A stretch of DNA of 13,075 nucleotides from Acidobacteriota bacterium (GTDB lineage Bacteria; Acidobacteriota; Vicinamibacteria; Fen-336), in NCBI GenBank assembly GCA_003222275.1, contig QHVJ01000096.1, positions 1-13,075 on the forward strand, given 5' to 3'. The position numbers were made by a program, and so were the translations under genes. Positions 1-13,075 of this stretch are shown here, one piece after another; the first letter of the stretch is position 1; each line of letters opens with the position of its first letter. The notes under the pieces were generated by a model, which did not search any database, had not been told where the DNA came from, and saw only the letters and a list, made by a program, of their open reading frames with translations.

Positions 1-1
1 C

Positions 2-355
2 TCCTTCCTCGGCAAGCGTCCGAGTGTGGTCGAGGCGGGTATCGGCGTCCTGGCCTGCGTCCCCCTGCGCCACGAGGGCCGCATGCTGGGCCTGATCTAC
101 GTGGACGGGCGCCCGCGCAGAGACGGCTTCACTGAAGTGGACCTCGAGATCCTGGACTCCCTGCGGCAGCACGCCGCGATGCTGATCGCCGGCCTTCACC
201 TGGACCGCCGAATTCGCAATCTCTTCCCCAAGCCCGAGCCGGGTGCGGCCGCGGCTGAAAAGGGCCTGCTTCTTCAGCTGGAGCGGCGGCTGGGCAAATC
301 CGTGAAGCTTCGGCTGCCGGGGCCGGGGCCGGGGCCGGGGCCGGAAGAGCGCTGA
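2..355 (+). CDS. GAF-domain protein, C-terminal fragment; the ORF is open to the window start and ends in a PGPGPGPG tail
   Basis: The frame stays open from position 2. 'GRMLGLIYVDGRPRRDGFTEVDLEILDSL' resembles the end of a GAF domain. The true start lies upstream of the window. Confidence 0.55.
   Translation, partial: SFLGKRPSVVEAGIGVLACVPLRHEGRMLGLIYVDGRPRRDGFTEVDLEILDSLRQHAAMLIAGLHLDRRIRNLFPKPEPGAAAAEKGLLLQLERRLGKSVKLRLPGPGPGPGPEER
319..342. repeat. (GGGGCC)x4 hexanucleotide microsatellite inside the 3' end of the GAF-domain gene, encoding PGPGPGPG
   Basis: Four perfect tandem GGGGCC units are read directly at 319-342, flanked by partial units. Confidence 0.8.
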
Positions 356-356
356 G

Positions 357-1799
357 TCAGGCGGCGTCGATGGCGGCGGCCACCCGATGGGCCGACCGCG
401 TGGCGGCCTCCATCCCCCAGTTGAGGTTGTCCGCGTACGCGCCGACGAAGTGGATGCGGCCTTCCGGCTCGATCACGCGCGGCCAGAAGCGGCGGAGCTG
501 GCCCGGACCGTAGCTGACGGGCTCGCAGGCCATGGCCCACGGGTCCTTCGCCCAGTCGATGACGAAGGCCTGCTCGATGTCGTCGGGGCCGCCCGGATAG
601 TAGCGGCGGAACGTGGCCAGCGCGTCGTCGGCGGTCGTGAAGCCGGGGGCGGTGCCCACGATCAACCCGCGCTTCGTCTCCACCTCGTCTCCCATCCGCC
701 ACACGTGCTCGAGCGCCGGCTGGTCGAAGATGATGTTGGGGCTCGTCTTCTGAGCCTCCCAGAAACGCGAGCGCGATTGGAACACGGGACGCGACGCCGT
801 GTAGTAGGGAAAGCCCTGAACCACGTAGGCGCGCTCCTCGGGCCACGCGGGCGTGACCGGCACCTCGCGCAGCTTCACCAGCGACATGGCCGAGACGAGG
901 TAGTCGCCTTCCTCCGTCCGCTCGCGCCCGGCCTCGCGGTACTTCACCTTGACGCCCGTGTCGCCGCGCTCGATCCCGGTCACGGGGCAGCCCAGCCGGA
1001 CCCGCTCGCCGAGCGCCTTCGTGAACGCGTCGGGCAGCGACTGGTTGCCGCCCTCGATCCGGAACACGTGAGGCGGGAACAGCGGCACGCCGCGTAGCTT
1101 GAGCAGCCCCGCGTGCCACACGGACTGGAGCGCCGAGCCGCGCGACCCGATGAGCCCGATGGCGGCGGCCGAGGCGCCGTCCTTCTTCAGCAGGTCGTTG
1201 AAGCTGATCTGGTCCAGGTGGTCGAGGCCCGCGCCGAAGGGCTGGTATTCGTCCTTGAAGCTGTCGAGATAGGGCTTGAAGTAGAGAGAGGCCAGGTTCC
1301 ACCACGGCTCGTGCGACAGGAAGTCCACCTCGCGCTGGTTGAGGCCGAAGCCGGCCAGCACCCTGGGATCGGCGAGCATCTCCTCCGTGTACGGCCGCTC
1401 GTTGATGAGCCGCAGCATGTTTTCACGCCGGTGGTAGGGACGCGCCGTGAGACCGAACTCCGCCACGTGGCCCCAGAAGAGCTCGTAGCCGGGCTTGGTG
1501 AAGTGCTCGGCGCCGCCGTCGACGTAGAGCCCGTCGGCCAGCGGATCGCGGACCGTGCGGACGTGCCCTCCCGTCCGTCCCGCCGCCTCGAGCACGGTCA
1601 CGTCGTGGCCGCGCTTCGTCAGCTCGTGGGCGCAGCAGAGCCCGGCGATGCCGCCGCCGGCGACGATGACCTTCTTGGGACGCCCGGCCCCGGGCGTCTG
1701 GACGCCCGCCTCGGCCGCGGCCCGTCCGACCGGGGAGGCCAGGACGGCCGCTCCCGCCAGCTTCAGCACGTCGCGGCGGCTCATCGCTTCGCGTGGCAT
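357..1799 (-). CDS. flavin-containing amine oxidase / L-amino-acid-oxidase-family protein with a twin-arginine (Tat) signal peptide
   Basis: The 480-aa ORF has the N-terminus 'MSRRDVLKLAGAAVLASP' (RR motif plus hydrophobic stretch). The dinucleotide-binding motif 'KKVIVAGGGIAGLCCAHEL...VTVLEAAGRTGG' follows. A GGAGG Shine-Dalgarno sits upstream at ~1806-1812 on the minus strand. Confidence 0.85.
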   Translation of the reverse strand: MPREAMSRRDVLKLAGAAVLASPVGRAAAEAGVQTPGAGRPKKVIVAGGGIAGLCCAHELTKRGHDVTVLEAAGRTGGHVRTVRDPLADGLYVDGGAEHFTKPGYELFWGHVAEFGLTARPYHRRENMLRLINERPYTEEMLADPRVLAGFGLNQREVDFLSHEPWWNLASLYFKPYLDSFKDEYQPFGAGLDHLDQISFNDLLKKDGASAAAIGLIGSRGSALQSVWHAGLLKLRGVPLFPPHVFRIEGGNQSLPDAFTKALGERVRLGCPVTGIERGDTGVKVKYREAGRERTEEGDYLVSAMSLVKLREVPVTPAWPEERAYVVQGFPYYTASRPVFQSRSRFWEAQKTSPNIIFDQPALEHVWRMGDEVETKRGLIVGTAPGFTTADDALATFRRYYPGGPDDIEQAFVIDWAKDPWAMACEPVSYGPGQLRRFWPRVIEPEGRIHFVGAYADNLNWGMEAATRSAHRVAAAIDAA

Positions 1800-1883
1800 A
1801 GGACGCCTCCTCGCGTCGGGCGGGATTGTAGTCCGGTAAGGACGCCCGCAGCGCGCGCTTAGATAAGGATAGCGGGCGGAGTA

Positions 1884-2606
1884 TTACCGGCGTGAGTCGG
1901 CCAGGGGCCGCCTCCAGAGCTCGTCCTGCGGATCGGATTCACGCTGCCGGCCGCCGGCGGGGCGGCGCGGCGGAATGCGCGTTCCGGAAATCCTGTCCCA
2001 TAGCCCGCTCGTCAACCCGAAACCCTGGGCCGCGCCCCGCGGGCTGTGGTGGTACCAGTGATGGAACCGGATGTACTGGAAGTAGCGGGACCGGAACCGG
2101 CAGAAGTGGACCGAGTAGTGGATCCACTCCTCGAGCACGTAGCTCTGGAGCAGGCCGGCGACCAGCACCGGCGCCTTGTAATAGGGCGTGAGGAGGAAGC
2201 TCACCGCGACGAAGAGCGCCGCGAAGGGGACCGAGTCGAGGTAGCCGTTGATGTACATCCCGTCCCACGGGCGCTGATGATGGTCGGCGTGCATCGTGTC
2301 GAAGAAGGTGTGCGCTCGATGCTTGAAGAATCCCGGCCCGTCCGGGAAGGGCCCGTGGAGGATGAACCGGTGGACGAGGTACTCGAGCAGCGTCCAGGCC
2401 ATCACCCCCAGGGCGAGATAGGCCAGGGCGTAGCCGGGATGGAAGACGAAGGCCGACACCAGCACGGTCGTCGAGTACGCGGTGAACAGGATCGTGACGG
2501 GATAGAAACGCCGCCGCGCCGTGCGGGCCTCGTCCGCGAGCACGATGCCCTCGGGGACAGGGAACAACGGATCAGGAATTCCACTGATCGATTTCAGGAG
2601 TGGCAT
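1884..2606 (-). CDS. fatty-acid hydroxylase / sterol-desaturase-family membrane di-iron protein; start ambiguous (ATG 2606, TTG 2663, or a GTG near 2543 with GAGGG upstream)
   Basis: Histidine-box motifs 'HRFILHG', 'HADHHQRP' and 'HFCRFRSRYFQYIRFHHWYHH' are present. The protein has several hydrophobic segments. It lies between the dehydratase and amine-oxidase genes on the same strand. Confidence 0.8.
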   Translation of the reverse strand: MPLLKSISGIPDPLFPVPEGIVLADEARTARRRFYPVTILFTAYSTTVLVSAFVFHPGYALAYLALGVMAWTLLEYLVHRFILHGPFPDGPGFFKHRAHTFFDTMHADHHQRPWDGMYINGYLDSVPFAALFVAVSFLLTPYYKAPVLVAGLLQSYVLEEWIHYSVHFCRFRSRYFQYIRFHHWYHHSPRGAAQGFGLTSGLWDRISGTRIPPRRPAGGRQRESDPQDELWRRPLADSRR

Positions 2607-2715
2607 AGAAGACTTTAAGCAGATCAGCAAAGGGCCCGCGACGCAAGCGGCAACGGGCGACAAAACCGTAGGCCGTCCCGCGCGGCGCGGACGTGCCTGG
2701 TTCCCCGCGGGCGCT

Positions 2716-4080
2716 TTAAGGCCGGATCACGGTCCCGTCGCGCCGCCGCGTACGGCCCCAGTCATAGTCGAAGTGCGGCGGGCCGGGGGGGAAGGGATAC
2801 CTCGCCGCCGCTTTCTCGTCCACGTCGATGCCGAGCCCCGGAGCCTCGCTCGCCCACAGGGCGCCGTCCCTGACCTCGGGGCAGCCGGGAAACACCTCCC
2901 GCGTCTTCCCTCCGAACCCCGAGCCCTCGTGAATGCCGAAGTTGTGGCTGGCCAGCTCGAGAGCGAGCTGTGCGGCGTGGCCGACGGGCGAGGTGTCGCC
3001 GGGCCCGTGCCAGGCCGTGCGCACGCCGAAGAACTCGCAGAGCGCCCCCAGCTTCCGCGCCATGCTCAAGCCGCCGATCTGCGACACGTGGGCGCGGATG
3101 AAGTCGATGAGGCGGCCGGTCACGAGTGGCACGTACTCGTGCTGGGTGTTGAACAGCTCCCCCATGGCGATGGGCACGCTCGTCTGCTGGCGCAGGATCC
3201 GGAAGTGCTCGTTCTGCTCGGGCGGCAGGGGGTCCTCGATGAAATAGGGACGGTAGCGCTCCAGCTCCTTGCACACCTGCACCGCCTCGGGAAGAGTCAC
3301 CCGCTCGTGCATGTCGTGCAGCAGCTCGACCTCGTCGCCCAGCGCGCCGCGGACGTGCTCGAACAGCTTCGGCAGCAGTCGCACGTACGGCCCCGACTCC
3401 CAGACGCGGGTGGGGTGCGTTGGCCCGTCCAGCTCGCCCTCAGGCGCGCTGGCGCCGCGGACGCCGTAGGTCGCCACGCCCGGAACCGCGACCTGGATGC
3501 GCACGTGGCGGTAGCCCTGCTCGACGGCCCGCCGGGCCTGGTCCGTCACCTCCTGGAAGTCGCGCCCGCTGGCGTGGAAGTAGAGGTCCGCGGCCATCCG
3601 GACCTTGCCTCCGAGGAGCTGGTAGACGGGCATGTTGGCGCGCTTGCCCTTGATGTCCCATAGCGCCTGGTCCACGCCGCTCATCGCGTTGAAGAGGACG
3701 GGCCCGTTCCGCCAGTAGGAGCTGACGTAGGAGGACTGCCAGATGTCCTCGATCTCGTCGGCGTTGCGGCCGAGGAGGAAGGGCTTGAGGTACTGCTCGA
3801 CCGCGGTCTGGACGACGTACGCGCGCTGGGTGAACGTCGCACAACCCAGGCCGTAGAGGCCCGGCTCGCTGGTCGTCACCTTCACCACCACCAGCCGGAT
3901 CCCATCGGGGGCGGTGAGGATCGTCTTGACGTCGGTGATCTTCACCGGCGGGAGGCCCCGGCGCGCGGGGACCGCCTCCTGGGGGAGGACGGAAGCCGAG
4001 AGCCTTCGGGGCGACAAGGCCGCGGCCGCACCAGCCACCGTCCCCCGCGATATCCACTGCAGGACGTCACGCCGATCCAT
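2716..4080 (-). CDS. enolase-superfamily protein of the D-mannonate dehydratase (ManD)/RspA/D-galactonate-dehydratase family, with an N-terminal Tat-like signal
   Basis: 'VKITDVKTILTAPDGIRLVVVKVTTSEPGLYGLGCATFTQRAYVV...IEDIWQSSYVSSYWRNGPVLFNAMSGVDQALWDIKGKRANMPVYQLLGG' closely follows the ManD family N-terminal and barrel pattern. The N-terminus is 'MDRRDVLQWISRGTVAGAAAAL'. A strong SD (GGGGGAGG) lies 7 nt upstream of the ATG at 4080. Confidence 0.85.
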   Translation of the reverse strand: MDRRDVLQWISRGTVAGAAAALSPRRLSASVLPQEAVPARRGLPPVKITDVKTILTAPDGIRLVVVKVTTSEPGLYGLGCATFTQRAYVVQTAVEQYLKPFLLGRNADEIEDIWQSSYVSSYWRNGPVLFNAMSGVDQALWDIKGKRANMPVYQLLGGKVRMAADLYFHASGRDFQEVTDQARRAVEQGYRHVRIQVAVPGVATYGVRGASAPEGELDGPTHPTRVWESGPYVRLLPKLFEHVRGALGDEVELLHDMHERVTLPEAVQVCKELERYRPYFIEDPLPPEQNEHFRILRQQTSVPIAMGELFNTQHEYVPLVTGRLIDFIRAHVSQIGGLSMARKLGALCEFFGVRTAWHGPGDTSPVGHAAQLALELASHNFGIHEGSGFGGKTREVFPGCPEVRDGALWASEAPGLGIDVDEKAAARYPFPPGPPHFDYDWGRTRRRDGTVIRP

Positions 4081-4135
4081 ACCAAGCCTCCCCCGGACGA
4101 GTCGTGCTTCGATCTTCGACGGCGAAGGTGCCAGG

Positions 4136-4621
4136 CTAATTCAGCTTCCGTTTGATCGCCGCTACGGCCTCGCGGGCGCCTTCGTAATCCGGACGGATCT
4201 CGAGCGCCCTCTGGAACTCTTCGAGGGCCTTCGAGAACATGTCGAGGGCTACGTAGGCGCGCCCGAGGTTGAGATGCGGGTAGTGCGGCGCCTCGTAGCG
4301 CCGGGCCCGGGTGGCCTTCTCGAGCCACGGGATAGCCTCGCGGTGCCGCCCCATCTCGATGAGGTAGGCGCCGATGTCGTTGTACGGGTTCCCGAACTCG
4401 GGGTCCACGCCGATCGCCCTCTGGCACTCGGCGATGGCGTCCTCGAGGCGTCCCAGGAACGAGTAGGTCCAGCCCAGGAACGTGTGGGCCTCGGCGGTGG
4501 GATAGGCCTCGGTCGATCGCTGGTAGAGATCGACGGCGAGGTCGAGATCTCCGCGCATCTGGGCGTCGAAGGCCTGCTGGAAGAGCCTGGCGGCGAGCTC
4601 GATGAAGTTGTCGGCGCCCAC
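4136..4621 (-). CDS. TPR-repeat protein (GTG start; the start is uncertain and could be an internal ATG)
   Basis: The ORF shows repeated TPR-like helical motifs (LG..Y...G..E.A......A....P). It lies 55 bp upstream of the dehydratase gene on the same strand. Confidence 0.65.
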   Translation of the reverse strand: MGADNFIELAARLFQQAFDAQMRGDLDLAVDLYQRSTEAYPTAEAHTFLGWTYSFLGRLEDAIAECQRAIGVDPEFGNPYNDIGAYLIEMGRHREAIPWLEKATRARRYEAPHYPHLNLGRAYVALDMFSKALEEFQRALEIRPDYEGAREAVAAIKRKLN

Positions 4622-4672
4622 GGCTCGATCATACTCCGCGCACCTCGACCAACGGGTGATGTACGACGGCCT

Positions 4673-4762
4673 AGTTGACGATTGCGGCGTAGACGAGTGT
4701 CGAGAAGCGTCCGAACAGCTTGTACTCGTCGAACGGAACGTGCTCCACGAGCAGGATCATGA
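4673..4762 (-). CDS. possible small ORF (29 aa, MILLVEHVPFDEYKLFGRFSTLVYAAIVN) with a strong AAGGAG ribosome-binding site; function unknown
   Basis: AAGGAG lies 9 nt upstream of the ATG, which is unusually good for this GC-rich context. The ORF is immediately upstream of the TPR gene on the same strand. Its tail 'LVYAAIV' faintly recalls the C-termini of RelE/YoeB-family toxins. It could also be a chance ORF. Confidence 0.2.
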
Positions 4763-4858
4763 CGATCCGCTCCTTAGAGTCGAGGCGGGCGAGGGTGGTG
4801 GCGGCGCCGTCCCAGGCTTCCTCTTGACAGATGTAGCCTCACGTGGCTGCATTGAGGC

Positions 4859-5146
4859 ATGAGGGCTGTAGGTGTTCGTGAGCTGAAGAACCGTCTGAGC
4901 GAGTATCTCCGCCTGGTGCGGAGCGGGGAGGAGATCCTCGTTACGGACCGCGGTGAGGTGATCGCGGAGTTGCGTCAGCCTATTCCACGCGTCGCACTGC
5001 TCTACCCGGCGCTGCTCGAGGCCTTTCGGCAAGGGCGGGCCCGGGTGGGACTACCCAACCGTCCCGGTCTGTATCCCACCCTGGGTCCCGTGATGCCGCC
5101 CGGCTCGGCGGCCAAGCTCCTCTATGAGGAGCGAGGCGAGCGCTGA
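4859..5146 (+). CDS. Phd/YefM (prevent-host-death)-family type II antitoxin, with a C-terminal extension; no toxin gene follows it
   Basis: The N-terminus 'MRAVGVRELKNRLSEYLRLVRSGEEILVTDRGEVIAELRQP' is the classic Phd/YefM pattern (..ELKN.LSE.L..V..GE...VT..G...A.L). Codon usage has lower GC than neighbouring genes. The downstream 131 bp contains no PIN/RelE-like ORF. Confidence 0.7.
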   Translation: MRAVGVRELKNRLSEYLRLVRSGEEILVTDRGEVIAELRQPIPRVALLYPALLEAFRQGRARVGLPNRPGLYPTLGPVMPPGSAAKLLYEERGER

Positions 5147-5277
5147 TTCTCTACGCGGAATCTCCTTCCGTGGCGGCCGAGCGGCGGTCGTTTCGCGGAT
5201 CTGGTGGAAAGTGCTGACGCTGCGCTTTCCATCACTCGGGCGACACGACGGGGCAAGAGGCAGGAGGCCATAGAATC

Positions 5278-6642
5278 ATGAATTTCAGCAAGAGACAGTT
5301 CATCAAGCGATGCGCGGCGATCCTGGGCGGATCAGCCATGTCACGCATGTTTGGTAGCGCATCAGTCGGCGCGACGTCGGAGAGCGCGCTTGCCAATTGG
5401 GCCGGCAATTACCGGTACAGTACCGACCGTCTGTACCGTGCCAGATCGCTGGAACAAGTTCAGGAGTTCGTCAAGCAGCACCGTCAACTAAAGGTCCTCG
5501 GCACGCGTCATTGCTTCAACGGGATCGCCGACAGCACCCACGATCTCCTCTCCCTCAGGGAGATGGATCAGGTGGTCGCGCTGGACCAGGGATCACGGAC
5601 GGTGACCGTCGAAGCGGGCATGAGCTATGGTCAGTTGTGCCCCTATCTCGATGAGAAGGGCTTTGCCCTGCACAACCTCGCCTCCTTGCCCCATATCTCC
5701 ATTGCGGGAGCGTGCGCCACGGCAACGCATGGCTCGGGCGTCAAGAATGGAAACCTGGCCACAGCAGTTTCCGCCATGGAGATCGTCACCGCTGGCGGCG
5801 AGGTGCTCAAGCTTTCCCGCGATACGGACGGCAGCACGTTTCAGGGGAGCGTCGTCAATCTCGGTGCTCTGGGCGTGGTCACCAAGGTGACGCTGGACGT
5901 TCAGCCCGCCTTCCTGATGCGCCAGGACGTCTATCTGAACCTCCCGACGGCGCAAGTAAAGGACCATTTCGAGGACATCGCTTCCGCCGGCTATAGCGTG
6001 AGCCTCTTCACCGATTGGCAGAAGGGGCGGATGAACGAAGTCTGGATAAAGCGTCGCGTCGACAAGGGGGTGACCCTGGCCGCCAAGCCGGAGTTCTATG
6101 GGGCAACACTCGCCACCAGGAACCTCCACCCGATCGTCGAGCTCTCCGCGGAAAACTGTACGGAACAGATGGGTGTCCCTGGCCCGTGGTATGAGCGATT
6201 GCCTCACTTCCGCATGGGTTTCACGCCAAGCAGCGGGAAGGAGTTGCAGTCCGAGTACTTCGTTCCCCGCCGGAACGCCGTCGAAGCCATTCTCGCGGTC
6301 GAGCGATTGCGCGACCACGTGAGCCCTCACTTGATGATTTCAGAACTGCGCACGATCGATGCGGACCAGCTGTGGATGAGTCCCTGTTACAACCAGCCCA
6401 GTCTCGCCATCCACTTCACGTGGAAACAGGACTGGGAGTCGGTCAGGAAGGTGCTACCGATGATCGAACGGGAACTGGCGCCCTTCAAGGTCCGACCGCA
6501 CTGGGGAAAGTTGTTCACGCTGGCCCCCGCGCAACTGCAACTGCGCTACGAGAGGTGTGGCGAATTCAAGCGGCTGGTGAAGCAGTATGACCCGCAGGAT
6601 AAGTTCCGCAACGAGTTCCTGGCCGCGAATCTCTACAGCTGA
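5278..6642 (+). CDS. FAD-linked oxidase of the vanillyl-alcohol-oxidase fold, D-arabinono-1,4-lactone oxidase/L-gulonolactone oxidase/alditol-oxidase subfamily, with a Tat-like (KR-variant) signal
   Basis: 'NWAGNYRYSTDRLYRARSLEQVQEFV...LKVLGTRHCFNGIADS' matches the FAD_binding_4 N-terminus of GULO/ALO/xylitol oxidases. The C-terminal 'HWGK' ALO-domain motif is present. The N-terminus is 'MNFSKRQFIKRCAAILGGSAMS...ALA'. AGGAGG sits upstream. GC content and codon usage (AGA, AAT, TTC) are clearly below the window average. Confidence 0.88.
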   Translation: MNFSKRQFIKRCAAILGGSAMSRMFGSASVGATSESALANWAGNYRYSTDRLYRARSLEQVQEFVKQHRQLKVLGTRHCFNGIADSTHDLLSLREMDQVVALDQGSRTVTVEAGMSYGQLCPYLDEKGFALHNLASLPHISIAGACATATHGSGVKNGNLATAVSAMEIVTAGGEVLKLSRDTDGSTFQGSVVNLGALGVVTKVTLDVQPAFLMRQDVYLNLPTAQVKDHFEDIASAGYSVSLFTDWQKGRMNEVWIKRRVDKGVTLAAKPEFYGATLATRNLHPIVELSAENCTEQMGVPGPWYERLPHFRMGFTPSSGKELQSEYFVPRRNAVEAILAVERLRDHVSPHLMISELRTIDADQLWMSPCYNQPSLAIHFTWKQDWESVRKVLPMIERELAPFKVRPHWGKLFTLAPAQLQLRYERCGEFKRLVKQYDPQDKFRNEFLAANLYS

Positions 6643-11219: not shown

Positions 11220-11291
11220 AGTTGGCACAGGAGTCGAACCTGTGACAGCCGAGTTTCGAGCTCGGTGCTCTATCCACTGAGCTAACCCTGA
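11220..11291 (-). tRNA. tRNA-like pseudogene with a canonical D-arm, an anticodon arm (loop CTCGAAA, anticodon CGA) and a T-arm, but a non-pairing acceptor stem (5' TCAGGGT vs 3' GCCAACT) and no encoded CCA
   Basis: On the minus strand the D-arm is 'TAGCTCAGTGGATAGAGCA'. The anticodon arm is CCGAG-CTCGAAA-CTCGG. The T-arm is ACAGG-TTCGACT-CCTGT. The anticodon CGA combined with a short variable loop does not fit any standard isoacceptor. Confidence 0.45.
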
Positions 11292-11414
11292 CACCTCCCT
11301 TCGTTAGAACCCGTGCGCGGAACGCGCGCCGCCGATCACAAGGTGAGGCGACGCGCACCGCCGGCCCGGGGGTATCAGCCCTTTCGCGGCCTCGTGGCCG
11401 CCTGAACTCCAAAA

Positions 11415-11488
11415 TGGAGGTAGGTCGGGGAGTCGAACCCCGCTAACTGGCTTTGCAGGCCAGCGCCTGACCGCTCGGCCAACCCACC
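11415..11488 (-). tRNA. tRNA-Cys(GCA)
   Basis: The acceptor is GGTGGGT/ACCTACC (one G-U pair). The anticodon arm is CTGGC-CTGCAAA-GCCAG. The T-arm is CGGGG-TTCGACT-CCCCG. Discriminator T and CCA are encoded. Length is 74 nt. Confidence 0.85.
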
Positions 11489-11943
11489 GGCAACTTCCGC
11501 TGCATGCGAACCACGTGGTCCGCTGCGTGCGAGGCGGCCCAGCTCTCCGGCTTGATCAGCGCCTTGAAGCCCTGGCCGACCACGAGGCCGACGAGCTCCT
11601 TGACGTAGGCGCTGCTCTTGTGAGCCACGACGGGGTTGGCGTCGATGTGCACCGTCAGCTCCCCCTTTACGATCGGCGAGAAGTGGAGTCCGAGGTCCAC
11701 CGACTTCCAGACCTCCTTCAGGAGCCGCTCGCGCAGGGAGGTGATCCGCGGCACTGTCTCCTTGCGATACGCGACGCGACCGCCCTTCCTCGGCGTGAGG
11801 ATCACCACAACCGTCACGAACTGGGTCAGGCGCCCCGTCTGGAGAGAGTCCGTCCCGACGTGGACCGCCTGGCCGTCCCTGGTGGCATCGCTGACAAACT
11901 GGAGGATGTCGGGGATCTTGACCTCATTCAGCGTCTTCCACAT
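11443..11943 (-). CDS. YkuK/DUF458-family RNase-H-like protein; its 3' end overlaps tRNA-Cys by ~46 nt
   Basis: 'VHVGTDSLQTGRLTQFVTVVVILTPRKGG...LTVHIDANP...ALIKPESWAASHAADHVVR' follows the YkuK pattern (..GTDSQ...FVTVIVI). The last ~15 codons are encoded by the tRNA-Cys gene. Confidence 0.65.
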   Translation of the reverse strand: MWKTLNEVKIPDILQFVSDATRDGQAVHVGTDSLQTGRLTQFVTVVVILTPRKGGRVAYRKETVPRITSLRERLLKEVWKSVDLGLHFSPIVKGELTVHIDANPVVAHKSSAYVKELVGLVVGQGFKALIKPESWAASHAADHVVRMQRKLPVGWPSGQALACKAS

Positions 11944-11954
11944 CGTGACCTCGC

Positions 11955-12330
11955 TAGAGAATGGAGGAGGGCCCCGTAGCGATCGCGCAGCGATCGCGAT
12001 TGATCAGGGGCGCCGAATTCAATTCGGCGCCCCGGAAGCCTCGAACCCTGTCGACTGGTTTTCGGGACCAGTCTCTATCCGACAGAATGCCCTCCTGAAA
12101 TTGGCGGAGAGGGCCTTAGCGATCGCGAAGCGATCGCGATTGATGAGGGGCGCCGAATTCAATTCGGCGCCCCGGAAGCCTCGAACCCTGTCGACTGGTT
12201 TTCGGGACCAGTCTCTATCCGACAGAATGCCCTCCTGAAATTGGCGGAGAGGGCCTTAGCGATCGCGAAGCGATCGCGATTGATGAGGAGCGCCGAATTC
12301 ATTTCGGTGCTCGGAAGATTCGAACTCTCG
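11955..12330. repeat. 140-bp tandem repeat, ~2.6 copies; unit starts fall at 11978, 12118 and 12258, and the third copy diverges
   Basis: Each unit contains 'agcgatcgcgNagcgatcgcgattgat' (two GCGATCGC palindromes). It then has a perfect 13-bp-stem hairpin 'ggggcgccgaattcaattcggcgcccc'. It ends with tRNA-like sequence (GGATAGAG, the stem-loop GACTGGT-CCCGAAA-ACCAGTC, GGGTTCGAGG). Copies 1 and 2 are nearly identical. Confidence 0.85.
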
Positions 12331-12395
12331 TGGCCGGATGGCCTCGGCACATTAGCGGTGTGCTGGGCTCCCCACTCGCCCTTTCCTCTCCGTGA

Positions 12396-12470
12396 TGGTG
12401 GCCGACCAGGGACTCGAACCCTGAAGGTCCCGCTTAGAAGGCGGGGAAGCGTCCATCGCTCGCGTCGGCC
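12396..12470 (-). tRNA. tRNA-Arg(TCT)
   Basis: The acceptor is GGCCGAC/GTCGGCC. The anticodon arm is CCCGC-CTTCTAA-GCGGG. The T-arm is CAGGG-TTCGAGT-CCCTG. Discriminator A and CCA are encoded. Positions 8-9 are GC (unusual) and the D-stem has one G-U pair. Confidence 0.7.
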
Positions 12471-12472
12471 AA

Positions 12473-12560
12473 TGGTCCCCGCTGGAGGAGTTCAACCTCC
12501 GTCTCTCCGTCCGGTCCTCCTGCTTACGGGCAGGTGTGCTGCCAGTAACACGTCATCGAC
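12473..12560 (-). tRNA. long-variable-arm tRNA-like pseudogene (Tyr GTA-like anticodon region, 6-nt anticodon loop, no pairing 5' acceptor)
   Basis: The T-arm is GGAGG-TTGAACT-CCTCC, followed by AGCGGGG-A-CCA. The stem is CCTGC/GCAGG with loop CCGTAA. The 5' end (GTCGATG) cannot pair with the 3' acceptor. Confidence 0.3.
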
Positions 12561-12561
12561 T

Positions 12562-12635
12562 TGGTCCAGGCTCGAGGACTCGAACCTCGATTCTCCGGTA
12601 ATCGGCCGGAAGTCCTGCCGTTGGACGAAGCCTGG
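12562..12635 (-). tRNA. tRNA with a full cloverleaf and an atypical anticodon loop CCGATTA (anticodon GAT, C33, U37); Ile(GAT)-like or atypical
   Basis: The acceptor is CCAGGCT/AGCCTGG. The D-arm is GTCC-AACGGCA-GGAC. The anticodon stem is TCCGG/CCGGA. The T-arm is CGAGG-TTCGAGT-CCTCG. Discriminator A and CCA are encoded. Confidence 0.5.
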
Positions 12636-12637
12636 AT

Positions 12638-12712
12638 TGGTGCCAGCGGTGGGAGTCGAACCCACCTCGTCCCGATCAAAAGGCGGGCACGCGGCCGCTG
12701 CGTCACGCTGGC
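12638..12712 (-). tRNA. tRNA-Lys(TTT)-like with a C31-U39 mismatch in the anticodon stem and G37; a TTG reading is possible if the loop is taken as 9 nt
   Basis: The acceptor is GCCAGCG/CGCTGGC. The D-stem is ACGC/GCGT. The anticodon region is CCCGC-CTTTTGA-TCGGG. The T-arm is GTGGG-TTCGACT-CCCAC. Discriminator A and CCA are encoded. Confidence 0.5.
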
Positions 12713-12720
12713 AATGAAGC

Positions 12721-12859
12721 TGGCTGTAGGGCCGGGATTCGAACCCGGATCTTTCGGAGCGTCCGAAGTGAATTCGTCCGCTCCTCATCAATCACGATCG
12801 CTTCGCGATCGTTAGGGCCGGTTAACAGCCGGACTTGTTGCCGTTGCCACCACCCTACA
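12721..12859 (-). tRNA. 139-nt tRNA-Asn(GTT)-like gene with a ~65-nt insertion (GCGATCGC palindromes plus a 29-nt hairpin) at the variable-loop position
   Basis: On the minus strand the 5' acceptor TGTAGGG pairs 7/7 with the 3' acceptor CCCTACA, followed by G and CCA. The anticodon loop is CTGTTAA (the canonical Asn loop). The T-arm is CCGGG-TTCGAAT-CCCGG. The D-stem is imperfect. The inserted module is an inverted copy of the module in the 140-bp tandem repeats. Confidence 0.5.
12756..12815. repeat. inverted copy of the hairpin + GCGATCGC module (hairpin 12756-12784 'ggagcgtccgaagtgaattcgtccgctcc'; palindrome part 12785-12815); it lies inside the Asn-like tRNA gene
   Basis: The reverse complement of 12749-12825 aligns with the start of repeat copy 3 (12247-12320), including 'gatgaggagcg.cgaattca.ttcgg'. 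Confidence 0.7.
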
Positions 12860-12878
12860 AGCGCACGACCTGTGAGGC

Positions 12879-13016
12879 TGGCTGGCAGACGTGGATTCGC
12901 TGTCTCGACGCTCTGCGGAGCGGAGCGTCGAGGCACGGCGGATCACGCGGAGCGTGATCGCCCACCACGATTGGCGGGTTCAGAGCCCGCGGTCCTGCCG
13001 TTGGACGATCTGCCAA
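12879..13016 (-). tRNA. 138-nt tRNA-Gln(CTG)-like gene with a ~65-nt insertion (two hairpins, 12904-12931 and 12941-12959) in the variable region and a degenerate T-arm
   Basis: On the minus strand the 5' acceptor TGGCAGA pairs 7/7 with TCTGCCA, followed by G and CCA (U1-A72 and G73 are typical of Gln). The D-arm is GTCC-AACGGCA-GGAC. The anticodon arm is GCGGG-CTCTGAA-CCCGC, a canonical loop. The T-loop region is AGCGAAT, with CGAAT conserved but no pairing stem. Confidence 0.45.
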
Positions 13017-13075
13017 TGGTCGGGTCGGGAGGAGTCGAACCTCCATGCACCTGCGCCCGAGGCAGGTGGGCTACC
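13017..13075 (-). tRNA. tRNA-Pro(CGG), 3' portion; the 5' part lies beyond the window end
   Basis: On the minus strand the anticodon arm is CCTGC-CTCGGGC-GCAGG (anticodon CGG, G37). The T-arm is GGAGG-TTCGACT-CCTCC. The acceptor 3' strand is CGACCCG, followed by A and CCA. Confidence 0.7.

What the first reader, a model, noticed from the sequence alone, without database searches (positions are those of the whole stretch)
357..4621. Candidate operon of Tat-exported ManD-like dehydratase, membrane di-iron hydroxylase and Tat-exported flavin amine oxidase, preceded by a TPR gene
Four co-oriented genes are separated by only 52-84 bp. Both the enolase-superfamily member (ManD/RspA family) and the amine oxidase begin with RR-containing signal-like N-termini (MDRRDVLQWISRGTVAGAAAAL; MSRRDVLKLAGAAVLASP). 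Export of an enolase-superfamily enzyme is unusual, because characterised ManD/RspA proteins are cytoplasmic. Together with the membrane hydroxylase, this suggests an envelope-located oxidation/dehydration pathway that does not match a named pathway I know. The substrate could be an amino sugar acid or an amino lipid.
Basis: partly seen in the sequence, partly recalled or inferred. Interest (0 to 1): 0.6.

Follow-up and report, generated by a model that had tools for sequence, protein, structure and literature searches.

The report
Exported ManD-type dehydratase with unrelated neighbours
The four genes and the two twin-arginine export signals are real, and the exported ManD-type sugar-acid dehydratase belongs to a large clade of probably periplasmic enolase-superfamily enzymes for which I found no published description, but the four genes are neighbours only in one narrow soil Acidobacteria lineage and do not form a conserved pathway.

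Summary
Four co-oriented minus-strand genes are present: TPR, ManD-like, a Scs7/FA2H-like di-iron hydroxylase and a flavin amine oxidase. The gaps are 55, 52 (109 from the likelier ATG) and 84 bp. Both RR N-termini sit behind good ribosome-binding sites.

The RR signals are conserved in homologues: 114 of 120 for ManD and 105 of 110 for the oxidase. The ManD-like protein keeps all seven catalytic residues of characterised ManD.

The operon or pathway reading is not supported.
- None of 80 genome loci holding ManD relatives has the hydroxylase or the oxidase within 10 kb.
- None of 54 oxidase loci below 90% identity has the hydroxylase upstream.
- One MAG carries the ManD and oxidase orthologues on different contigs.
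- A relative whose ManD is 92–93% identical has three genes, two of them on the opposite strand, between ManD and the hydroxylase.
- The TPR gene is present only in 99%-identical contigs.

What remains interesting is the Tat-bearing ManD group. It forms two stable clades and is found in Acidobacteriota, Planctomycetota, Verrucomicrobiota, Bacteroidota and Rhodothermales. Its neighbours are often other Tat-exported sugar enzymes or periplasmic PQQ–cytochrome c dehydrogenases.

Most likely it is a periplasmic sugar-acid dehydratase. The substrate is unknown. Export has not been shown experimentally.

The parts
2716..4080 (-). ManD-subgroup enolase-superfamily dehydratase, 454 aa. It has a 45-residue N-terminal extension in front of a canonical ManD core that starts at VKITDVK.
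   Evidence: Pfam MR_MLE_N and MR_MLE_C. NCBIfam ManD 414 bits and PRK15072 408.5 bits, both under their cut-offs. Best solved relatives are 3t6c, 3tw9 and 4ihc, E about 1e-135. Catalytic R194, Y205, D256, H258, E282, E308 and H358 are conserved.
3946..4080 (-). Codons 1-45 of the ManD-like gene. This is a Tat-type signal (MDRRDVLQWISRGTVAGAAAALSPRR) plus a linker ending in the conserved RGLPP(V/L)KIT junction.
   Evidence: RR is invariant and L7 is over 90% conserved in 81 homologue N-termini. Tat-related models are the only ones matched by more than two of these N-termini. The window's own score on TIGR01409 is 12.9, below the 16.7 cut-off. The h-region is 12 uncharged residues followed by RR. 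The RBS GGGGGAGG precedes ATG1.
1884..2606 (-). Membrane di-iron hydroxylase of the FA_hydroxylase superfamily, Scs7p/FA2H-like, without a cytochrome b5 domain. An alternative TTG start lies at 2663.
   Evidence: Pfam PF04116, E 1e-14. Scs7p hydroxylase domain 4zr0, E 1e-11. The His motifs HRFILH, HADHH, HYSVH and HHWYHH are visible in the translation. Homologues are named sterol desaturase/sphingolipid hydroxylase or dihydroceramide 2-hydroxylase.
357..1799 (-). Flavin amine oxidase family protein, 480 aa, with a canonical Tat signal (MPREAMSRRDVLKLAGAAVLASPVGRAAAEA).
   Evidence: Pfam Amino_oxidase, E 2e-41. TIGR01409 scores 18.6, above its 16.7 cut-off. 105 of 110 homologues have an SRRDVLKLAG-type motif. 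The AF2 model has pLDDT 88.6, with residues 1-37 at low confidence. Fold matches are LAAO, MAO and NicA2 at about 20% identity.
4136..4621 (-). Small cytoplasmic-type TPR protein, 161 aa. It is only a neighbour and not part of any conserved unit.
   Evidence: TPR families. A close copy next to ManD occurs only in the 99%-identical contigs L103 and L109. It is absent at that position in L096 and L001.

Best explanation
The region holds independent genes that happen to lie head-to-tail in one narrow Acidobacteriota lineage.

(1) The ManD-like gene encodes a catalytically intact ManD-subgroup acid-sugar dehydratase. It is made with a twin-arginine signal, folds and oligomerises with Mg2+ in the cytoplasm, and is exported by Tat to the periplasm. 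There it dehydrates an aldonate-type sugar acid to a 2-keto-3-deoxy acid. The sugar acid would be produced by periplasmic sugar oxidation, through Gfo/Idh/MocA-type, PQQ-type or flavin oxidases. The product is then taken up.

(2) The amine oxidase is a separate Tat-exported flavoprotein of unknown amine substrate.

(3) The hydroxylase is an Scs7/FA2H-like membrane lipid hydroxylase.

(4) The TPR gene is unrelated.

Shown here: gene structure, signal conservation, catalytic residues and the lack of conserved linkage. Inferred: actual export, substrate, and the order of periplasmic steps.
For: Signals:
- RR motif in 114 of 120 ManD homologues and 105 of 110 oxidase homologues.
- HMM support.
- Moderately hydrophobic h-regions followed by basic residues.
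- Tat-bearing ManD proteins fall into two coherent clades, with only 3 parsimony changes among 75 sequences. They occur in Acidobacteriota, Planctomycetota, Verrucomicrobiota, Bacteroidota and Rhodothermales.
- An internal start cannot explain the extension. There is no start codon near the mature boundary in 11 of 23 loci, and the codon is CTG in the 92-93% relative L001.

Activity: all seven catalytic positions equivalent to NaManD R147, Y159, D210, H212, E236, E262 and H312 are present and invariant.

Periplasmic sugar context elsewhere:
- L001 and L096 have a Tat or Tat-like second MR_MLE, a Gfo/Idh/MocA protein and a xylose-isomerase-like TIM barrel upstream.
- L006 has Gfo, DUF1080 (3-keto-disaccharide hydrolase) and TIM-barrel genes, some with RR N-termini.
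- Spirosoma flavum and Parapedobacter pyrenivorans place the gene beside a PQQ-cytochrome c quinohemoprotein dehydrogenase and a conserved secreted 325-aa protein.
- Neighbour families overall are MR_MLE, MFS sugar transporters, SusD, Gfo, cytochrome c and PQQ.
- Tat-exported periplasmic Gfo-type sugar oxidation has precedent in PMC8121099.

Independence of the genes.
Against: - No signal-peptide predictor (SignalP, TatP) could be run.
- The window's own ManD signal is sub-threshold on TIGR01409 (12.9 against 16.7) and PF10518 (13.6 against 22.7). Its h-region is short at 12 residues, and an Arg at position 12 interrupts it.
- Codon 46 in the window is GTG, so a cytoplasmic isoform is conceivable here.
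- Neighbourhoods of Tat-ManD genes are heterogeneous. No partner is found in more than about a fifth of loci, so the periplasmic-oxidation link is suggestive only.
- The three genes ManD, hydroxylase and oxidase are contiguous in several contigs with 92-100% identical orthologues, and no terminator was detected between them. Local co-transcription is therefore not excluded.
Confidence: 0.68

Rival explanations
1. TPR, ManD, hydroxylase and oxidase form one operon. It encodes an envelope-located oxidation/dehydration pathway for an amino sugar acid or an amino lipid.
For: The genes are co-oriented with short gaps of 55, 52-109 and 84 bp. No terminator-like site lies between them. Two products are exported and one is membrane-bound. 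The ManD-hydroxylase-oxidase order recurs in contigs L007, L096, L097, L103 and L109.
Against: - Those contigs are all close relatives; their orthologues are 92-100% identical to the window's.
- In L001 and L105 (ManD 92-93% identical) about 2.2 kb lies between ManD and the hydroxylase; in L001 this holds three genes, two on the opposite strand.
- L108 has hydroxylase and oxidase with no ManD within 4.7 kb.
- None of 54 oxidase loci under 90% identity has the hydroxylase, and none has a ManD orthologue.
- None of 80 ManD genome loci has either gene within 10 kb.
- MAG GCA_003223555.1 carries ManD and the oxidase on different contigs.
- More distant hydroxylase homologues pair with an aminotransferase and an MFS transporter, or lie near a ceramidase.
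- The TPR gene occurs only in 99%-identical contigs.
Confidence: 0.07
2. Only the hydroxylase-oxidase pair is a functional unit in this lineage. For example, a membrane amino lipid or sphingoid lipid is hydroxylated and its amine is oxidised in the periplasm. ManD is merely adjacent.
For: The pair stays adjacent in every contig where the oxidase is at least 91% identical and upstream sequence is available (4 of 4, plus L001, L096 and L097). This holds even where ManD is separated or absent. The hydroxylase is Scs7/FA2H-like. Homologues occur near a ceramidase and fused to PagL.
Against: The pairing disappears at or below 88% oxidase identity (L106, L110, L010). It is absent from 54 more distant oxidase loci and from the hydroxylase loci L098-L102. 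The oxidase's commonest neighbours are FG-GAP/ASPIC, TPR, ALO-type and Zn-ADH genes. No substrate evidence exists.
Confidence: 0.12
3. The RR N-termini are not export signals. The true start of the ManD-like gene is the GTG at codon 46, which would give an ordinary cytoplasmic ManD beginning MKITDVK.
For: Codon 46 is GTG in the window, and the product would mimic the N-termini of cytoplasmic ManDs. The window's Tat HMM scores are sub-threshold.
Against: - There is no Shine-Dalgarno sequence before codon 46, whereas GGGGGAGG precedes ATG1.
- The codon is CTG or CTC in L001, L003, L008 and L009, and no start codon lies nearby in 11 of 23 Tat-positive loci.
- The upstream 45 codons are conserved as protein, with invariant RR and the conserved junction RGLPP(L/V)KIT.
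- The extension tracks phylogeny.
Confidence: 0.06

Closest known systems
D-mannonate dehydratase (ManD) subgroup of the enolase superfamily. Examples are Novosphingobium aromaticivorans ManD (PDB 2QJJ) and the enterobacterial ManD-family proteins 3T6C, 3TW9/3TWA and 4IHC.
   Same: The two-domain MR_MLE fold. Mg ligands Asp, Glu and Glu. The Tyr-Arg dyad on the 150-180s loop. The His acid. All align and are invariant in the clade. The E-value to 3t6c is 1.6e-136.
   Different: It carries a 45-residue Tat-type N-terminal extension that is missing from every solved or characterised member. It scores below the NCBIfam ManD equivalog cut-off (414 against 550) and below the PRK15072 subfamily cut-off (408.5 against 430). 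The loop between Y205 and the conserved W is shorter and of different sequence from both the 2QJJ-type and the 3T6C-type. It is only about 45% identical to canonical ManD. The substrate is unknown.
Tat-exported periplasmic Gfo/Idh/MocA sugar oxidoreductases. Examples are Zymomonas mobilis glucose-fructose oxidoreductase and the Bacteroides thetaiotaomicron BT2158 / DUF1080 3-keto-disaccharide pathway (PMC8121099).
   Same: An enzyme family that is normally cytoplasmic is sent fully folded to the periplasm through a twin-arginine signal to act on sugars before uptake. Such Gfo, DUF1080 and TIM-barrel genes lie next to Tat-ManD in L001, L006 and L096.
   Different: The fold and chemistry differ: dehydration of an acid sugar rather than NAD(P)-dependent oxidation. 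No exported enolase-superfamily member is described in the papers searched. None of these genes is in the window itself.
NicA2 / Pnao of Pseudomonas putida. From my own knowledge, these are Tat-exported flavin amine oxidase-family enzymes that pass electrons to a cytochrome c.
   Same: The window oxidase aligns end to end, including the signal region, with NicA2 (5ttj, E 6.5e-13) and matches its fold (6c71, TM about 0.7). Both have RR signals.
   Different: Identity is only about 20%, and the snake-venom L-amino-acid oxidases score better. The LAAO carboxylate-binding Arg90 aligns with His99, so it is probably not a classical L-amino-acid oxidase either. No cytochrome c partner lies in the window. 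The electron acceptor is unknown.
Scs7p / FA2H ceramide fatty-acyl 2-hydroxylase (PDB 4ZR0)
   Same: The hydroxylase domain aligns over residues 59-224 (E 1e-11). The histidine motifs are present.
   Different: It has no cytochrome b5 domain. It is a bacterial protein of about 240 aa. The substrate is unknown. Its neighbours vary: oxidase, aminotransferase plus MFS, or ceramidase.

Membership tests
ManD subgroup, enolase superfamily | Three carboxylate Mg2+ ligands at the ends of barrel strands 3, 4 and 5 (NaManD D210, E236, E262) | tested here: met
   D256, E282 and E308 align with them (numbering checked against 2qjj through L095). They are invariant in 28 homologues.
ManD subgroup, enolase superfamily | Tyr-Arg general-base dyad on the 150-180s loop, and the His general acid (NaManD Y159, R147, H212) | tested here: met
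   Y205, R194 and H258 align and are invariant. The residue roles come from my own knowledge of Rakus et al. 2007 (cited in PMC5368075).
ManD (isofunctional D-mannonate dehydratase, NCBIfam NF043051 equivalog) | Score at or above the curated cut-off | tested here: not met
   414.3 bits against a cut-off of 550. The subfamily model PRK15072 scores 408.5 against 430. It should therefore not be called a mannonate dehydratase.
ManD (isofunctional) | Dehydration of D-mannonate or D-gluconate in vitro | not testable with these tools
   Needs enzyme assays on an acid-sugar library.
Twin-arginine (Tat) signal peptide | Z-R-R-x-hydrophobic-hydrophobic motif near the N-terminus, followed by a weakly hydrophobic uncharged h-region and a basic c-region | tested here: met
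   ManD: DRRDVLQ, a 12-residue h-region (mean Kyte-Doolittle 1.09), then RR. Oxidase: SRRDVLK, a 12-residue h-region (1.67), then R. The motifs are conserved in 114 of 120 and 105 of 110 homologues.
Twin-arginine (Tat) signal peptide | Curated HMM cut-off (TIGR01409, 16.7 bits) | tested here: inconclusive
   The oxidase scores 18.6 (met). ManD scores 12.9 (not met). Among 81 ManD homologue N-termini, 25 hit TIGR01409 and 49 hit the formate_TAT model at E up to 1, and no non-Tat model is matched by more than two.
Twin-arginine (Tat) signal peptide | Demonstrated Tat-dependent export | not testable with these tools
   Needs reporter fusions, fractionation or tat mutants.
Conserved operon / pathway of the four genes | Gene order or co-occurrence kept across divergent genomes | tested here: not met
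   None of 80 ManD genome loci has the hydroxylase or oxidase. None of 54 oxidase loci below 90% identity has the hydroxylase. The order is interrupted in L001. The genes are on separate contigs in one MAG.
L-amino-acid oxidase | Carboxylate-binding Arg (Arg90 in snake-venom LAAO) | tested here: not met
   In the phmmer alignment to 3kve, Arg90 pairs with His99 of the window protein. H99 is invariant in the clade.
Scs7p/FA2H-type fatty-acyl 2-hydroxylase | Histidine-rich di-iron motifs in a four-helix membrane domain, plus an N-terminal cytochrome b5 domain | tested here: inconclusive
   The His motifs are present and the hydroxylase domain aligns. The cytochrome b5 domain is absent, as the protein is only 240 aa.

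The most novel reading that the evidence does not exclude
Tat-bearing ManD-subgroup proteins would be the first enolase-superfamily acid-sugar dehydratases that work in the periplasm. This would be an ancient trait, kept in two clades found in at least five bacterial phyla. They would complete a periplasmic route from sugar to sugar acid to 2-keto-3-deoxy acid, downstream of PQQ, Gfo or flavin oxidases. Part of what is thought of as cytoplasmic Entner-Doudoroff-like chemistry would then take place outside the inner membrane in many soil bacteria.
Probability: 0.5. Interest if true: 0.55.

Novelty: new variant of a known kind. Interest (0 to 1): 0.4.

Why it matters
All characterised aldonate and uronate dehydratases are treated as cytoplasmic. 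Pathway reconstructions for Acidobacteriota, Planctomycetota, Verrucomicrobiota and Bacteroidota annotate these genes as "mannonate dehydratase" or "RspA" on that assumption.

If the clade is periplasmic, its substrates, transport steps and energetics differ from those annotations. Dehydration would occur before uptake, possibly coupled to respiratory-chain-linked sugar oxidation. The enolase superfamily would also gain a Tat-exported branch.

Two cultured hosts, Spirosoma flavum and Parapedobacter pyrenivorans, make this directly testable.

The finding is also a cautionary case. Tight co-orientation in a single window suggested an operon that comparative context does not uphold.

Tried and rejected
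- I could not obtain the primary ManD-subgroup paper. Look-ups by PubMed id and by a guessed PMC id failed. Statements about the activity classes of 3T6C-type and 3TWA-type proteins are therefore not used as evidence.
- Searches for any description of Tat-exported enolase-superfamily or mandelate-racemase proteins found nothing relevant.
- The search of representative clusters at 50% identity gave family size only (742 clusters at E up to 1e-30). It said nothing about signals, because many representatives are fragments.
- The promoter and terminator scan found no sites in 1..5400. This neither supports nor excludes co-transcription, and Acidobacteria promoters are not covered by the scan.
- The structure prediction and fold search of the oxidase placed it in the MAO/LAAO/NicA2 fold at about 20% identity. 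This does not narrow the substrate.
- A peptidase_S15 gene lies near oxidase homologues in L010, L011, L012, L096 and L097, but it did not appear among the 25 commonest families of the immediate neighbours of 59 oxidase loci. I dropped it as a lead.
- TPR proteins are frequent near oxidase homologues. They are abundant in these genomes, and the window's TPR gene has no close copy outside the 99%-identical contigs, so I dropped this too.
- I considered and rejected an internal GTG start at ManD codon 46.
Full report
**Observation**

The window carries four co-oriented minus-strand ORFs at the coordinates given:
- a TPR protein, 4621..4136
- a ManD-like protein, 4080..2716
- an FA_hydroxylase-family protein, 2663 or 2606..1884
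- a flavin amine oxidase, 1799..357

The gaps are 55 bp, 52 bp and 84 bp. The middle gap is 109 bp if the ATG at 2606 is used, which is about where gene callers start the orthologues at 227–240 aa. Pfam and NCBIfam confirm all four domain assignments.

Reading the strand shows GGGGGAGG 7 nt before the ManD ATG and GAGGAGG before the oxidase ATG. Both RR motifs therefore lie inside the best-supported reading frames.

**Are the RR N-termini export signals?**

SignalP and TatP are not available, so I used conservation and curated HMMs.

ManD-like protein:
- The best 120 homologues are all at least 70% identical. 114 of them start M-x-RR-(D/E)-x-L-(R/Q)-W-(L/I)-S followed by an Ala/Gly-rich stretch. 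The six exceptions lack the N-terminal region; several are visibly truncated.
- In 81 non-identical N-termini RR is invariant and L7 is over 90% conserved.
- When those N-termini are scanned against NCBIfam, Tat-related models (formate_TAT 49, TAT_signal_seq 25, TatB_1 3) are the only ones matched by more than two members.
- The window's own peptide is sub-threshold: 12.9 bits against a 16.7 cut-off on TIGR01409 and 13.6 against 22.7 on PF10518. Its h-region is short, at 12 uncharged residues after an Arg at position 12.

Amine oxidase:
- Its N-terminus passes TIGR01409, at 18.6 bits.
- 105 of 110 full-length homologues carry an SRRDVLKLAG-type motif.
- In the AlphaFold model only a short helix (residues 8–21) is predicted in the otherwise low-confidence first 37 residues, ahead of the Rossmann fold.

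I tested the downstream-start rival directly. Codon 46 of the ManD gene is GTG in the window and would give MKITDVK, like cytoplasmic ManDs. Three results argue against it:
- The same codon is CTG or CTC in the closest relatives.
- 11 of 23 Tat-positive loci have no start codon near the boundary.
- A conserved protein junction, RGLPP(L/V)KIT, spans it.

**Is the enzyme intact?**

A canonical ManD from L095 aligns 1:1 with NaManD (2qjj), which gave me the residue numbering. Using it, the window protein has R194, Y205, D256, H258, E282, E308 and H358 at the positions of R147, Y159, D210, H212, E236, E262 and H312. All seven are invariant in 28 homologues.

The nearest solved structures are the enterobacterial ManD-family proteins 3t6c, 3tw9 and 4ihc, with E about 1e-135. 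Canonical ManDs score about 1e-86 to 1e-98.

The protein misses NCBI's equivalog cut-off for ManD (414 against 550 bits) and the subfamily cut-off (408.5 against 430). It is therefore a member of the ManD subgroup by mechanism but should not be named a mannonate dehydratase.

**Is it an operon or pathway?**

Comparative context says no.

Relatives whose orthologues are 92–100% identical show several arrangements:

| Loci | Arrangement |
|---|---|
| L007, L096, L097, L103, L109 | ManD, hydroxylase and oxidase contiguous |
| L001, L105 (ManD 92–93% identical) | About 2.2 kb between ManD and the hydroxylase; in L001 it holds three genes, two on the opposite strand |
| L108 | Hydroxylase and oxidase, with no ManD in the 4.7 kb upstream |

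The TPR gene accompanies ManD only in the 99%-identical contigs L103 and L109. It is replaced by other genes in L096 and L001.

Beyond that lineage the linkage vanishes:
- None of 80 genome loci with ManD relatives (40–71% identity, up to 10 kb flanks) holds a hydroxylase or oxidase homologue.
- Of oxidase loci with at least 1 kb of upstream sequence, 4 of 4 at 90% identity or more have the hydroxylase, and 0 of 54 below 90% do. None has a ManD orthologue.
- MAG GCA_003223555.1 carries the ManD orthologue (78%) and the oxidase orthologue (88%) on different contigs, and neither is near a hydroxylase.
- Hydroxylase homologues at 66–77% identity sit with an aminotransferase and an MFS transporter, or near a ceramidase.
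- A family census of the immediate neighbours of 59 oxidase loci lists neither FA_hydroxylase nor MR_MLE among its 25 commonest families. The top families are FG-GAP/ASPIC, TPR, ALO-type oxidase and Zn-ADH.

Local co-transcription in this lineage cannot be excluded, since no terminator was detected. A shared pathway has no support.

**What is the ManD-like gene, then?**

Tat-type N-termini occur on ManD-subgroup proteins from several groups:
- Acidobacteriota
- Planctomycetota (Isosphaeraceae)
- Verrucomicrobiota
- Bacteroidota, including the cultured Spirosoma flavum and Parapedobacter pyrenivorans, with textbook S/N-RR-x-x-L-K motifs
- Rhodothermales

Homologues from Chloroflexota, Firmicutes, Spirochaetes and Enterobacteria start directly at the barrel-capping domain.

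I built a neighbour-joining tree of 75 core domains. The 35 Tat-bearing sequences fall into two coherent clades, with only three parsimony changes. The signal is therefore an old, stably inherited trait, which argues for function.

The neighbourhoods are heterogeneous but carbohydrate-flavoured and periplasmic:
- In L001 and L096 the genes upstream are a second MR_MLE (MRKRQFLGSLLGAAG), a Gfo/Idh/MocA oxidoreductase (MRRRQFVAKTSAAVAG) and a xylose-isomerase-like TIM barrel (TRREFVASVSALA). Each has a Tat or Tat-like N-terminus.
- In Isosphaeraceae (L006) the gene faces a cluster of Gfo, DUF1080 (3-keto-disaccharide hydrolase) and TIM-barrel genes, several with RR N-termini, and is followed by a permease.
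- In Spirosoma and Parapedobacter it lies on one strand with a PQQ-dependent dehydrogenase fused to a cytochrome c domain. From general knowledge, such quinohemoproteins are periplasmic. A secreted 325-aa protein, 53% identical between the two genera, lies there too.
- Across 27 loci the commonest neighbour families are other MR_MLE proteins, MFS sugar transporters, SusD, Gfo, cytochrome c and PQQ.

This resembles the established logic of Tat-exported periplasmic sugar oxidation, as in Zymomonas GFOR and B. thetaiotaomicron BT2158/DUF1080 (PMC8121099).

My best reading is a periplasmic acid-sugar dehydratase acting on aldonates made outside the inner membrane. Export and substrate are inferred, not shown.

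**The other two enzymes**

The oxidase has the MAO/LAAO/NicA2 fold at about 20% identity. The carboxylate-binding Arg90 of L-amino-acid oxidases aligns with an invariant His99, so it is probably not a classical L-amino-acid oxidase. From my own knowledge, NicA2 is a precedent for a Tat-exported member of this family that uses a cytochrome c. The window offers no partner, and the substrate is unknown.

The hydroxylase aligns with the hydroxylase domain of yeast Scs7p (E 1e-11) and keeps the histidine motifs. It lacks a cytochrome b5 domain. One homologue is fused to PagL and another lies near a ceramidase, which points to membrane-lipid hydroxylation.

**Novelty and score**

I found no paper describing an exported enolase-superfamily dehydratase. 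Public names for this clade are "mannonate dehydratase", "RspA" and "D-galactonate dehydratase family".

The proposed four-gene pathway is not real as a conserved system. The Tat-bearing ManD clade is a new variant of a known enzyme kind. It is widespread, and it is testable in cultured strains.

Overall interest is 0.4.

Noticed in passing
window 5278..6642 (+): An alditol-oxidase homologue (PDB 2vfr xylitol oxidase, E 4e-117; 8ot8, E 1.5e-136). It has about a 33-residue N-terminal extension, MNFSKRQFIKRCAAILGGSA, which is the Tat consensus with KR in place of RR. Orthologues in another lineage start MNKRSFIKLFSGTAAAP, so the KR form is conserved. It would be a third candidate Tat substrate in the window.
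   Followed up: partly
L160, L175, L177, L180 (and L174, L181): In other lineages (oxidase about 59% identical) the alditol-oxidase homologue lies divergently 0.36-0.8 kb from the amine-oxidase homologue. In the window the same two genes are also divergent, but 3.5 kb apart, with the antitoxin, TPR, ManD and hydroxylase genes between them. This may be an older pairing of two exported flavoproteins. There are only about two independent lineages, so it could be chance.
   Followed up: partly
L036 6656-11329; L041 10001-14512: In Spirosoma flavum and Parapedobacter pyrenivorans three genes share one strand: a PQQ dehydrogenase with an inserted cytochrome c domain, a secreted 325-aa protein with no family match (53% identical between the genera), and the Tat-ManD gene. 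The 325-aa protein is an uncharacterised candidate partner.
   Followed up: partly
L001 5246-7880; L096 2311-4615: Relatives with 92-93% identical ManD have, upstream of it, a second MR_MLE protein (409 aa) starting MRKRQFLGSLLGAAG (a KR variant), a Gfo/Idh/MocA protein starting MRRRQFVAKTSAAVAG, and a xylose-isomerase-like TIM barrel starting MKVTRREFVASVSALA. In the window this block is replaced by the TPR and antitoxin genes.
   Followed up: partly
window 4859..5146 (+): A PhdYeFM-type antitoxin gene (95 aa) with no toxin ORF behind it, since the next gene starts at 5278. The relative L096 has a Phd plus PIN pair. This may be an orphan or a decayed toxin-antitoxin module.
   Followed up: no
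window 26..355 (+): The 3' end of a GAF-domain gene, ending in a PGPGPGPGP tail. It is convergent with the oxidase gene and ends one base short of the oxidase stop codon at 357. L096 and L097 show the full gene as FHA plus GAF.
   Followed up: no
window 11223..13075 (-): A tRNA cluster. ARAGORN calls Cys, Arg, Ile and Lys, and Rfam adds hits at 11223-11287 and 13020-13075. The two tools agree on only two loci. ORFs at 11636..12238 and 12241..12717 share the peptide AERALAIAKRSRLMR, which implies a direct DNA repeat near 12.1-12.3 kb.
   Followed up: no
P0504; L102 449-4394; L098 6001-8913: Hydroxylase homologues occur fused to a PagL lipid A deacylase domain, three genes from an alkaline ceramidase, or directly followed by an aminotransferase and an MFS transporter. 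These are hints that this bacterial Scs7-like clade acts on membrane lipids.
   Followed up: no
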